In this document: in pieces, positions 30,695-31,406 of the stretch
Numbering within the stretch: the stretch's first letter is position 1
Layout: each line of letters opens with the position of its first letter
Program-made: the position numbers and the translations under genes
The notes under the pieces: model-generated
Seen by the model: the letters and a program-made list of their open reading frames with translations, nothing else
Databases searched by the model: none
Told to the model about the DNA's origin: nothing
Assembly (NCBI RefSeq): GCF_054482525.1
Contig: NZ_CM137006.1
Reading direction: 5' to 3' (one strand)
Length of the DNA stretch: 64,000 nucleotides

Positions 30695-30761
30695 TGGGCG
30701 GTATTCTGAAACGGCGATTGTCGTGAGAACAGAATGGTTGCACCAGAATACAGATATAAAA

Positions 30762-30790
30762 AAACCGACATGACAGTCGGTTTTTTTATT
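30762..30790 (+). terminator. rho-independent terminator after mnmH
   Basis: aaaaaccgacatgacagtcgg hairpin followed by tttttttatttttt. Confidence 0.7.
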
Positions 30791-31105
30791 TTTTCCGCCC
30801 AAGACTTGGTGGTTCCGGGCAGAAATGAAACAGTCCTCATCTAGCAAGTGAATTATAAGTCAGGATGCCTACATATTCAAACAGCTATGTTGGCGATACA
30901 ATCCCGACGCTAGTAGTGATACTGCCTCAAGGGATTACCGCAGTGCGGAAAAGTACTTTTAAGTCCTGGTCAGGATACAGGTGGTGCTGATTCTGGTGCT
31001 CTAATTTGGAGAGAGGCAGTCCTCATCTAGCACATGAAGAAAATCATAGTTACAGGCAACGTAAGGGTAAGCTGTGATTGTCTTTCTCCCTTAAGGGAGC
31101 AACGG

Positions 31106-31189
31106 ATGAAAACTTTTCTCGATAAAGTTCTCATCGTTCTTAAGGCGCTAATCGCGCTGCTGGAACTGATCCGTCAGTTTATTGAATAA
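31106..31189 (+). CDS. candidate 27-aa hydrophobic peptide (DinQ/TisB-like type I toxin?)
   Basis: atg preceded by agggag Shine-Dalgarno; encodes MKTFLDKVLIVLKALIALLELIRQFIE, a single amphipathic/hydrophobic helix; followed by a hairpin. Below the six-frame track length cutoff. Function inferred only from resemblance. Confidence 0.35.
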   Translation: MKTFLDKVLIVLKALIALLELIRQFIE

Positions 31190-31197
31190 CTGAGGAA

Positions 31198-31236
31198 ACG
31201 TAGCTAAGGCCGAAGGTTTACCACCTTCGGCCTTTA
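31198..31236. terminator. hairpin downstream of small ORF (possible bidirectional terminator)
   Basis: aaggccgaaggtttaccaccttcggcctt inverted repeat flanked by T-run on one side and A-run on the other. Confidence 0.5.
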
Positions 31237-31289
31237 AAAAAACCGACATGACAGTTGGTTTCATATTTATTGCCAAAATGCACACTGTT

Positions 31290-31390
31290 CATGCCAGATG
31301 CGGCGTAAACGCCTTATCCGGCCTACACAATCTTGCAAAATCAATATATTGCACGATCCTCGTAGGCCTGATAAGCGTAGCGCATCAGGC
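31290..31390. repeat. REP/BIME palindromic units
   Basis: gccagatgcggcgtaaacgccttatccggcctaca and gtaggcctgataagcgtagcgcatcaggc match REP consensus. Confidence 0.6.
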
Positions 31391-31406
31391 AATCTAACGC
31401 CTGTCA

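What the first reader, a model, noticed from the sequence alone, without database searches (positions are those of the whole stretch)
31040..31240. Unannotated 27-codon hydrophobic ORF resembling DinQ/TisB-type type I toxins
At 31106-31189 an ATG with a good Shine-Dalgarno (agggag) encodes MKTFLDKVLIVLKALIALLELIRQFIE, a single amphipathic transmembrane-length helix, followed immediately by a stable hairpin. Its size, composition and the segment ALIALLELIR closely resemble what I recall of the SOS-associated membrane toxins DinQ and TisB, which map elsewhere in K-12. If real, this is a further member of that family at a new locus, in the spacer that replaces the rhsD element.
Basis: partly seen in the sequence, partly recalled or inferred. 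Interest (0 to 1): 0.65.

Follow-up and report, generated by a model that had tools for sequence, protein, structure and literature searches.

The report
Second DinQ-type toxin–antitoxin locus
The small ORF is real and belongs to the DinQ family of membrane toxins, with its own antisense RNA antitoxin gene next to it, but public E. coli annotations already name it dinQ and a 2016 paper already described the dinQ-like family, so it is a correct observation and not a discovery.

Summary
31106-31189 (+) encodes MKTFLDKVLIVLKALIALLELIRQFIE behind a good Shine-Dalgarno, and a strong hairpin follows.

It is one part of a complete DinQ/AgrB-type type I toxin-antitoxin module, a 570-bp insertion/deletion (30709-31278) between mnmH and ybbP. 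The module contains:
- a divergent AgrB-family sRNA gene (30756-30844, minus strand; Rfam 53.6 bits against a gathering score of 40) with a TTGAAT-17-TATAAT promoter;
- a ~197-nt toxin 5' UTR that keeps all four regulatory elements described for dinQ;
- an sRNA target that ends 75 nt upstream of the start codon, as in K-12 dinQ.

The peptide passes NCBIfam's curated DinQ cutoff and is 79% identical to DinQ over 19 residues. It shows no similarity to TisB. Six loci from other genera share the layout, show sRNA/target co-variation, and show purifying selection on the 27 codons (pN/pS 0.16-0.37).

It is not new. RefSeq names it dinQ in most carrier genomes. 1,331 of 5,426 complete E. coli genomes carry the module, 189 of them with a toxin-inactivating deletion. 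Kristiansen et al. 2016 defined the dinQ-like (dql) family.

Two differences from K-12 dinQ stand out: there is no LexA box, so the "damage-inducible" name is unsupported for this copy, and the continuous antisense helix is shorter. Toxicity was not tested.

The parts
30709..31278 (.). Whole toxin-antitoxin module, a 570-bp presence/absence polymorphism between the mnmH stop codon and the REP elements upstream of ybbP
   Evidence: Alignment with empty-site strains (L003-L005) gives the junction ATTCTG|TGCAC. 1,331 of 5,426 genomes carry it.
30756..30844 (-). AgrB-family antisense sRNA gene (putative antitoxin, ~89 nt): 5' single-stranded tail, internal stem-loop, and a 14-bp terminator hairpin that is bidirectional and may also terminate mnmH
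   Evidence: Rfam RF02891 AgrB scores 53.6 bits against a gathering score of 40, E = 1.5e-7, over the full model. Fold. Terminator. The same gene is found in the same position in 6 loci from other genera.
30852..30880 (-). Sigma-70 promoter of the sRNA (TTGAAT-17-TATAAT), placing the sRNA 5' end at about 30844/30845
   Evidence: It is the only promoter-like site found in the region (10 of 12 matches). It aligns with the K-12 agr promoter position.
30874..30902 (+). Inferred toxin promoter: -35 TATTCA (30874-30879, overlapping the sRNA -35 on the other strand) and -10 TACAAT (30897-30902). No LexA box.
   Evidence: It aligns with the -10 elements (TATAAT/TATCAT/TATGAT) of 7 homologous loci. The best LexA score in the locus is HI 14.6, against 4.4-4.7 for the K-12 dinQ box. 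The transcription start was not measured.
30909..31240 (+). Inferred toxin mRNA (~330 nt; 5' UTR ~197 nt)
   Evidence: The +1 is inferred by alignment to the mapped K-12 dinQ +1 (GUUAGC; GUG = G195 in PMC5066626). UTR lengths are 192-201 nt in all 8 loci.
30909..30928 (+). 5' arm of stem S1: element a (GCUAG, 30909-30913) and sequence 1 (ACUGCCUC, 30921-30928). In the full-length mRNA this arm pairs with and hides the sRNA target / sequence 2.
   Evidence: MFE fold of the full-length mRNA. Per-locus helix search shows a compensated a/a' pair, GCUAG/CUAGC here versus GUUAG/CUAAC in the 7 other loci.
31008..31031 (+). sRNA target, covering sequence 2 (GGAGAGAGG) and a' (CUAGC). There is an 18-bp continuous helix with sRNA nt 1-18 (31013-31030), and 22 of 23 positions pair over 31008-31030.
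   Evidence: 16-nt exact repeat between 30831-30846 and 31017-31032. Helix and position. Duplex -46 kcal/mol, z = -7.4 against shuffled tails. The target ends 75 nt before the start codon, as in K-12.
31076..31099 (+). Sequence 3 (GAUUGUCUUUCUCC), which can pair either with sequence 2 or with sequence 4, and the SD-sequestering hairpin CUCCC-UUAA-GGGAG (31086-31099). The Shine-Dalgarno is at 31093-31099.
   Evidence: RNAalifold recovers the 2:3 duplex, with a compensatory U-A to A-U change in the window sequence.
31106..31189 (+). Toxin ORF, 27 codons: MKTFLDKVLIVLKALIALLELIRQFIE
   Evidence: pN/pS is 0.16-0.37 against loci in other genera, and variable sites by codon position are 8/5/17. The start codon is ATG or GTG at the same position in all loci.
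31206..31234 (+). 3' stem-loop of the toxin mRNA, homologous to the dinQ terminator. It is not followed by a U-run.
   Evidence: The terminator scan did not flag it because there is no T tract.
31235..31274 (.). Degenerate second copy (83%) of the sRNA terminator. It is possibly the remnant 3' end of a lost second agr gene, and it can act as a second terminator-like hairpin on the + strand.
   Evidence: Direct repeat D1. Terminator-like site at 31240-31261. Fold.

Best explanation
This is a second, chromosomal DinQ/AgrB-type type I toxin-antitoxin module. By its peptide it is probably the 'DqlA' kind of dinQ-like gene. The + strand makes a ~330-nt mRNA whose 27-codon ORF encodes a small amphipathic inner-membrane helix peptide. 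That peptide would depolarise or damage the membrane if made in quantity. Synthesis is held off in three ways. (i) In the full-length mRNA, the 5' end (GCUAG...ACUGCCUC) pairs with GAGGCAGU...CUAGC, and the Shine-Dalgarno is locked in the hairpin CUCCC-UUAA-GGGAG. (ii) Only after the 5' end is trimmed can sequence 2 (GGAGAGAGG) pair with sequence 3 (CUUUCUCC) and free the SD. (iii) The divergently transcribed ~89-nt AgrB-like sRNA pairs through its 5' tail with mRNA 31008-31030. That occupies sequence 2, re-closes the SD hairpin, and creates an RNase III substrate. Unlike K-12 dinQ, the toxin promoter has no LexA operator, so transcription is probably not SOS-controlled. What is shown here: the sequence features, family membership, conservation, co-variation and coding constraint. 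What is inferred from DinQ/AgrB and DqlB/AgrB experiments: transcription starts, processing, toxicity and sRNA action.
For: - Peptide: NCBIfam toxin_DinQ 40.9 bits against a cutoff of 30; 15 of 19 residues identical to DinQ, E = 3e-8.
- sRNA: Rfam AgrB above its gathering score, with a near-consensus promoter.
- Annotation and distribution: RefSeq names the ORF dinQ. A canonical-type dinQ match is found in 5,415 of 5,426 genomes, and carrier records show two places, so this is an extra copy.
- Six loci from Salmonella, Yersiniaceae, Klebsiella aerogenes and Enterobacter share the layout, each with an AgrB hit.
- In each locus the sRNA pairs from its nt 1 with its own mRNA. The target ends 75-76 nt upstream of the start codon, and the cognate pair gives the longest helix in the 7 comparable rows; the K-12 agrA row is excluded, because its best match is the agrA gene itself inside the K-12 agrB intergenic column.
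- All four UTR elements are present, with compensatory changes.
- pN/pS is 0.16-0.37, variation is concentrated at third codon positions, and stops interrupt the upstream extension in 5 of 7 loci.
- Mechanism precedent: PMC3567139 and PMC5066626 for DinQ/AgrB; PMC12365149 for DqlB/AgrB, including compensatory-mutation proof of base-pairing.
Against: - There are no expression, processing or toxicity data for this copy.
- The continuous sRNA-mRNA helix (18 bp, 2 of them G-U) is the shortest in the family. K-12 has a 34-bp duplex region per PMC5066626, 23 bp continuous by my measure.
- By RNAduplex energy, the window sRNA pairs about as well with a Yersiniaceae mRNA (-47.5) as with its own (-46.0).
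- The toxin -35 is poor (3 of 6), and the promoter scan did not call it.
- The peptide is less hydrophobic than DinQ (GRAVY 1.23 against 1.79). It has Lys where DinQ has Gly10, and its longest uncharged run is only 6 residues, so membrane insertion and toxicity may differ.
- RNAfold did not predict an open SD in 5'-truncated forms, but it also failed for K-12 +44, so this test says nothing either way.
- 189 genomes carry a toxin-destroying deletion, so the toxin is dispensable.
Confidence: 0.85

Rival explanations
1. Decaying or silent relic: the module descends from a DinQ-type system, but in E. coli the toxin is no longer expressed or toxic. Only the sRNA, if anything, still functions.
For: A 108-bp deletion removing the target, SD, start codon and 7 codons is found in 189 genomes, while the sRNA gene is kept with 1 mismatch. 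The toxin -35 is weak. The antisense helix is the shortest in the family. The module is absent from about 75% of E. coli. The peptide has a charged Lys in mid-helix.
Against: By subtraction, about 1,140 genomes keep the module without the 108-bp deletion; the region is at least 99% identical in 1,318 records, but I did not check ORF integrity genome by genome. Every regulatory element is intact, including compensated base pairs. The same Lys and the C-terminus RQFI[DE] are conserved across genera under purifying selection, so they are family traits and not decay.
Confidence: 0.1
2. It is SOS-inducible like K-12 dinQ, through a non-canonical LexA site.
For: The best LexA-like 20-mer in the locus (GCCTACATATTCAAACAGCT, 30867-30886, HI 14.6) lies exactly over the two overlapping -35 hexamers. 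Only 9 positions in the 64-kb window score as well or better. RefSeq's product name says 'damage-inducible'.
Against: HI 14.6 is far from the K-12 dinQ box (4.4-4.7) and lies outside the range of the 24 functional sites used (0.7-10.1). The invariant CTG is CTA. The K-12 box position over the -10 holds no CTG...CAG here, and the six other-genus dql-type loci tested scored no better than HI 13.2. The RefSeq name is inherited from the HMM. The matrix was rebuilt from sites recalled from memory, although it reproduces the published dinQ value of 4.83.
Confidence: 0.07
3. The ORF is conserved only because the DNA or RNA is conserved, and it is not translated.
For: Within E. coli the region is >99% identical, so E. 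coli genomes alone cannot separate DNA conservation from protein conservation.
Against: Across genera, synonymous differences dominate (pS 0.34-0.56 against pN 0.07-0.19), variable sites by codon position are 8/5/17, the indel relative to dinQ is in frame (9 nt), and the start codon and SD spacing are conserved. The homologous DinQ and DqlB peptides are translated and toxic (PMC3567139, PMC12365149).
Confidence: 0.03

Closest known systems
dinQ-agrAB of E. coli K-12 (arsR-gor intergenic region; Weel-Sneve 2013, Kristiansen 2016)
   Same: A 27-aa peptide with an identical ALIALLELIR core. A ~195-nt 5' UTR with the a/a', 1:2, 2:3 and 3:4 elements. A divergent AgrB-family sRNA whose 5' tail pairs with a target ending 75 nt before the start codon. 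A homologous 3' stem-loop. A mRNA of about 330 nt.
   Different: One agr gene instead of two. No LexA operator (HI 14.6 against 4.4-4.7). ATG start three codons further upstream and a C-terminus three residues shorter (RQFIE versus RFLLQLLN). Lys instead of Gly10. An 18-bp continuous helix against 23 bp continuous in K-12 (34-bp duplex region per PMC5066626). A different chromosomal site, present in only about 25% of strains.
dql (dinQ-like) genes, group dqlA (Kristiansen et al. 2016, RNA 22:1739; taken into T1TAdb)
   Same: The paper describes chromosomal and plasmid dinQ homologues in Enterobacteriaceae that share the 5' UTR architecture and signature residues. [quoted passage not shown] All of this fits this locus, including the 51-aa RefSeq model.
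   Different: I could not see the paper's Fig. 3B or its supplement, so assigning this exact peptide to dqlA is an inference. It rests on the peptide failing the DqlB model and matching the widespread ...IVLKAL[IV]ALLELIRQFI[DE] group. No later paper in the searchable library mentions dqlA.
[quoted passage not shown]
   Same: The same family and layout, and the same C-terminal ELIRQFI[DE]. For DqlB, toxicity, sRNA rescue and dependence on base-pairing have been shown experimentally.
   Different: DqlB is 31 aa with a different N-terminal half (MINLLIIVLRAVAALANALIAILELIRQFID). The window peptide scores 24.5 bits on NF041473, below the cutoff of 35. DqlB is plasmid-borne and acts as an addiction module, with 35-nt complementarity.
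tisB-istR-1
   Same: The general logic: a small membrane toxin, a long 5' UTR activated by 5' processing, and a divergent trans-acting sRNA.
   Different: No sequence similarity. TisB uses a ribosome standby site and is LexA-controlled. This locus is not a member of that family.

Membership tests
DinQ/AgrB type I toxin-antitoxin family | Peptide matches the curated DinQ profile above its cutoff | tested here: met
   NF041472 toxin_DinQ scores 40.9 bits against a cutoff of 30, E = 1.8e-10. BLASTP against DinQ gives 15 of 19 identical residues, E = 3e-8. Homologues carry a precomputed PF28061 DinQ hit. The local Pfam scan gave no hit, perhaps because that library copy lacks PF28061 (not checked).
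DinQ/AgrB type I toxin-antitoxin family | AgrB-family sRNA gene upstream, divergently transcribed and not overlapping the toxin mRNA | tested here: met
   RF02891 at 30756-30844 (-) scores 53.6 bits against a gathering score of 40. The promoter is TTGAAT-17-TATAAT. The inferred transcription starts lie 65 bp apart, as in 4 of the 7 other loci.
DinQ/AgrB type I toxin-antitoxin family | The sRNA 5' tail is complementary to the toxin 5' UTR well upstream of the SD and covers sequence 2 | tested here: met
   An 18-bp helix starts at sRNA nt 1, and 22 of 23 positions pair over 31008-31030. The target ends 75 nt before the ATG, the same position as in K-12. The cognate pair gives the longest helix in the 7 comparable rows; the K-12 agrA row is excluded.
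DinQ/AgrB type I toxin-antitoxin family | Long 5' UTR with four elements allowing mutually exclusive 1:2, 2:3 and 3:4 pairings, plus an SD hairpin | tested here: met
   All helices were found, with compensatory changes in a/a' and 2:3. The switch itself, an open SD after trimming, could not be reproduced by RNAfold even for K-12.
DinQ/AgrB type I toxin-antitoxin family | LexA operator at the toxin promoter (the 'damage-inducible' property of dinQ proper) | tested here: not met
   The best site in the locus has HI 14.6, against 4.4-4.7 for the K-12 box. There is no CTG-N10-CAG over the -10. This argues against equivalence to dinQ itself, but not against membership of the wider dinQ-like family, whose other members also lack the box.
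DinQ/AgrB type I toxin-antitoxin family | Peptide is toxic or membrane-depolarising, and the sRNA neutralises it | not testable with these tools
   This needs cloning and induction. Precedents exist only for DinQ (PMC3567139) and DqlB (PMC12365149).
DqlB subfamily | Matches the curated DqlB profile above its cutoff | tested here: not met
   NF041473 scores 24.5 bits against a cutoff of 35. Only the C-terminal ELIRQFI[DE] is shared.
DqlA subfamily (Kristiansen 2016) | Peptide groups with the published DqlA sequences | not testable with these tools
   The figure and supplement are not held. Membership is inferred by exclusion and from the paper's description.
TisB/IstR-1 | Sequence similarity to TisB | tested here: not met
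   BLASTP finds no alignment at E <= 100.

The most novel reading that the evidence does not exclude
The chromosomal copy may be a LexA-independent DinQ paralogue whose main selected part is the sRNA. Its 5' tail (GUUUCAUUUC, rich in U) can form G-U-tolerant 14-15-bp helices with the GGAGUGAGAC element of dinQ-like mRNAs, including those on ICEs and a DqlB plasmid. That would let the chromosomal module act as an anti-addiction or immunity element against dql-carrying plasmids and ICEs. It would also explain why 189 genomes lost the toxin but kept the sRNA gene.
Probability: 0.08. Interest if true: 0.45.

Novelty: already known. Interest (0 to 1): 0.15.

Why it matters
The practical value is mostly in correcting annotation.
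- About a quarter of complete E. coli genomes carry a second DinQ-type toxin-antitoxin module that K-12 lacks. Studies of type I toxins, persistence or SOS-induced depolarisation in non-K-12 strains should take it into account.
- The RefSeq product name 'damage-inducible' and the 51-aa gene model both look wrong for this copy. There is no LexA box, and the conserved product is 27 aa.
- The ATT-start 'dinQ' called in deletion alleles is an artefact.
- No paper in the searchable library reports an experimental test of this subfamily, so a simple toxicity-and-rescue experiment would fill a small gap.

None of this changes the understanding of type I systems.

Tried and rejected
- RNAfold prediction of SD accessibility in full-length and 5'-truncated mRNA. 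The SD stayed paired in all forms of the window mRNA. The same test also failed for K-12 +44, which is known experimentally to be open, so I dropped it as uninformative.
- RNAduplex with the whole sRNA against the whole mRNA. It produced an inflated structure full of loops. I replaced it with ungapped-helix counts and a 36-nt-tail duplex.
- Looking up the peptide in the supplements of Kristiansen 2016. None are held.
- Literature search for 'dqlA'. Only unrelated hits came back.
- Local Pfam scan of the 51-aa form. No hit, although PF28061 is precomputed for homologues.
- Strict LexA consensus search with up to 3 mismatches. No hits anywhere in the window, so I used a heterology-index scan instead.
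- First attempt to count the deletion allele with a 91-nt junction probe. It failed because the tool joined the two halves into one place in intact alleles. A 50-nt probe worked.
- Transposition as the origin of the module. I rejected it because the 570-bp indel has no target-site duplication and no terminal inverted repeats.

Full report

Yes. The + strand has an ATG at 31106 that opens a 27-codon frame ending at 31189. It translates to MKTFLDKVLIVLKALIALLELIRQFIE. AAGGGAG lies 6 nt upstream of the ATG. A perfect 12-bp hairpin (31206-31234) begins 16 nt after the stop codon, and a weaker second hairpin follows. Together they fold at -29.8 kcal/mol, z = -4.8 against shuffles. The 27 codons are the 3' part of a longer in-frame ORF (31034-31189, 51 aa).

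**2. What is it?**

A megablast of the spacer against 5,426 complete E. coli genomes finds it in 1,331 of them, always on the chromosome. Every intact-allele record I inspected carries the RefSeq feature 'dinQ: damage-inducible type I toxin DinQ' (WP_001308457.1, the 51-aa model).

- The 27-aa peptide scores 40.9 bits on NCBIfam NF041472 toxin_DinQ (curated cutoff 30). It scores only 24.5 bits on the DqlB model (cutoff 35).
- A more sensitive blastn finds a dinQ-type match in 5,415 of 5,426 genomes, and two places in carrier records. So this is an extra copy in addition to the arsR-gor dinQ.

**3. The surroundings: a complete module.**

Rfam's AgrB model (RF02891) hits 30756-30844 on the minus strand at 53.6 bits (gathering score 40) over the full model. 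The only consensus-grade sigma-70 promoter in the region, TTGAAT-17-TATAAT at 30880-30852 (-), is placed to start that RNA at about 30844.

I aligned the locus to the K-12 dinQ-agrAB locus (L002; agrB at 758-841, agrA at 989-1072, dinQ at 1347-1430). Homology runs from the proximal agr gene through the toxin promoter, 5' UTR, ORF and 3' stem-loop.

Kristiansen et al. give the K-12 GUG as G195. That puts the K-12 +1 at the conserved GTTAGCTCTG, and the aligned window position is G30909. It is preceded by a -10 TACAAT (30897-30902) and a weak -35 TATTCA (30874-30879) that overlaps the sRNA -35 on the other strand. The inferred mRNA is about 330 nt with a 197-nt 5' UTR, the same as dinQ.

**4. 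Evidence from related loci.**

A protein search found a conserved group...IVLKAL[IV]ALLELIRQFI[DE], in E. coli, Shigella, Salmonella, Yersiniaceae, Klebsiella aerogenes and Enterobacter. I fetched six of these loci:
- one Salmonella locus next to a phage-type integrase gene;
- two Yersiniaceae chromosomal sites;
- three loci among conjugative-transfer genes, two ICE-like (Salmonella, E. hormaechei) and one F-like (K. aerogenes).

All six have an AgrB hit above the gathering score, upstream on the opposite strand. All have a 192-201-nt UTR, an SD at -10, and an ATG or GTG at the same position.

In every locus the sRNA pairs from its first nucleotide with its own mRNA, at a site ending 75-76 nt upstream of the start codon. 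The cognate pair gives the longest helix in the 7 comparable rows of the cross-matrix; I excluded the K-12 agrA row, whose best match is the agrA gene itself inside the K-12 agrB intergenic column. The window gives 18 bp, and the other cognate pairs give 19-32 bp. This co-variation between sRNA and target is the strongest computational evidence that the antisense relation is functional. Counting G-U pairs, the window duplex covers 22 of 23 positions over 31008-31030, which includes all of 'sequence 2'.

The four elements of the published dinQ switch are all present:
- a/a' is GCUAG/CUAGC here and GUUAG/CUAAC in the 7 other loci, a compensated pair;
- 1:2 is ACUGCCUC/GAGGCAGU;
- 2:3 is a 14-bp helix, with a compensatory U-A to A-U change;
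- 3:4 is the SD hairpin CUCCC-UUAA-GGGAG.

**5. Is the ORF coding?**

Between the window and the six loci from other genera, pS is 0.34-0.56 and pN is 0.07-0.19 (pN/pS 0.16-0.37). Variable sites by codon position are 8/5/17. The length difference from dinQ is an in-frame 9-nt indel.

The 24 codons upstream of the ATG contain stop codons in 5 of 7 loci, and no SD precedes the 31034 ATG. In K-12, translation was shown to start at the homologous internal codon (PMC3567139).

**6. How it differs from dinQ proper.**

- *No LexA operator.* I rebuilt a heterology-index matrix from 24 LexA sites recalled from memory. It reproduces the K-12 dinQ box at 4.4-4.7 (published value 4.83). The best site in the window locus scores 14.6. 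Nothing lies over the -10, where K-12 has its box, and the six other-genus dql-type loci score 13.2-20.7. The 'damage-inducible' name comes from the HMM name and is not evidence for this copy.
- *One agr gene, not two.* A degenerate 40-nt copy of the sRNA terminator sits just after the toxin 3' hairpin (31235-31274). It may be what remains of a second unit.
- *A less hydrophobic, more amphipathic peptide.* GRAVY is 1.23 against 1.79 for DinQ. Lys replaces Gly10, and D6, K13, E20 and E27 line up on one helical face (the helical phase is my own arithmetic). These traits are conserved across genera, so they belong to the subfamily.
- *A shorter continuous antisense helix.* By RNAduplex energy, the window sRNA's preference for its own mRNA is modest.

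**7. Population picture.**

The module is an exact 570-bp indel (30709-31278) relative to strains in which mnmH and ybbP are adjacent with nothing in between (junction ATTCTG|TGCAC). There is no target-site duplication and there are no terminal repeats. K-12-like strains have rhsD at this site, and their match stops just after mnmH.

189 genomes carry a 108-bp deletion (about 31018-31125, at an AGT(c/t)CTCATC microhomology). It removes part of the target, the SD, the start codon and seven codons, but keeps the sRNA gene with one mismatch. In some of those genomes PGAP calls a 25-aa 'dinQ' starting at ATT, which is an artefact.

**8. Comparison with what is known, and novelty.**

Kristiansen et al. 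2016 (PMC5066626) defined 'dql' (dinQ-like) genes in chromosomes and plasmids of Enterobacteriaceae, grouped as dqlA and dqlB. They noted that these genes are often unannotated or given a longer N-terminus, that they can coexist with dinQ, and that they share the UTR switch. T1TAdb predicted their antisense RNAs. DqlB/AgrB was validated on pOXA-48 in 2025, including compensatory mutations that prove base-pairing.

The window locus fits this description and is probably a DqlA-type member. I could not confirm that label because the figure and supplement are not held. No later paper on dqlA turned up.

It is wrong on 'unannotated', on 'new', on TisB and on the SOS link. I classify the finding as already known and of low interest.

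**9. Confidence and limits.**

I put the probability that this is a DinQ/AgrB-family type I module at about 0.85. I could not test whether the toxin is expressed and toxic, or whether the sRNA neutralises it. Those steps are inferred from DinQ and DqlB experiments. The alternatives are a silent relic (about 0.1), non-canonical SOS control (about 0.07) and a non-coding ORF (about 0.03). The SOS alternative concerns regulation only, so it can coexist with the main explanation and these figures are not meant to sum to 1.

Noticed in passing
window 30757-30796 and 31235-31274: A 40-nt direct repeat (83% identity). The bidirectional terminator of the AgrB-like sRNA, which may also terminate mnmH, recurs in degenerate form right after the toxin 3' hairpin. 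It looks like the leftover 3' end of a second agr gene or of an old tandem unit.
   Followed up: partly
window ~31018-31125 (allele seen in L006 and L017): A 108-bp deletion at an AGT(c/t)CTCATC microhomology removes part of the sRNA target, the SD, the start codon and 7 codons in 189 complete genomes. The sRNA gene is kept (1 mismatch), leaving an orphan antitoxin. In some of these genomes PGAP annotates an ATT-start 25-aa 'dinQ' with no SD.
   Followed up: yes
window 31034-31189: The RefSeq 51-aa gene model (WP_001308457.1) is probably over-extended. The upstream 24 codons contain stop codons in 5 of 7 homologous loci, and no SD precedes the 31034 ATG.
   Followed up: yes
window 30874-30880: The -35 hexamers of the divergent toxin and sRNA promoters overlap on opposite strands (TATTCA on + and TTGAAT on -). 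The two inferred transcription starts lie 65 bp apart here and in 4 of the 7 other loci examined, which suggests promoter competition. The best, still weak, LexA-like site (HI 14.6, 30867-30886) lies over this overlap.
   Followed up: partly
window 31287-31400; L001 3692-4672: REP/BIME-type palindromes lie downstream of the module. Rfam ES036 scores 40.3 bits against a gathering score of 37.6 at 31327-31369, and there is a sub-threshold naRNA4 hit. In strain 2014C-3075 an IS621 transposase gene lies between dinQ and ybbP; I did not map its exact insertion point relative to the REP elements.
   Followed up: no
window 30730-30787 (+); L008 1173-1242 (-): Weak, sub-threshold Rfam OrzO-P hits fall on the AgrB-like RNAs (24 and 37.5 bits, gathering score 60). 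This fits a 2024 remark that a dinQ 5' UTR on plasmids resembles the zor 5' UTR (PMC11264685). It hints at a distant zor/orz-dinQ/agr relationship.
   Followed up: no
window 31106-31189 (peptide): D6, K13, E20 and E27 are spaced i, i+7 and fall on one face of the predicted helix. The longest uncharged run is only 6 residues, and GRAVY is 1.23 against 1.79 for DinQ. The peptide is much more amphipathic than DinQ, and this is conserved across genera.
   Followed up: partly
window 30815-30844 (sRNA 5' tail) against L008, L009, L010, L013 and L015 mRNAs: The U-rich stretch GUUUCAUUUC of the window sRNA can form 14-15-bp G-U-containing helices with the GGAGUGAGAC element of dinQ-like mRNAs at two Yersiniaceae chromosomal loci, two ICE-like loci and a DqlB plasmid. 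Cross-talk with mobile-element toxins is therefore possible.
   Followed up: partly
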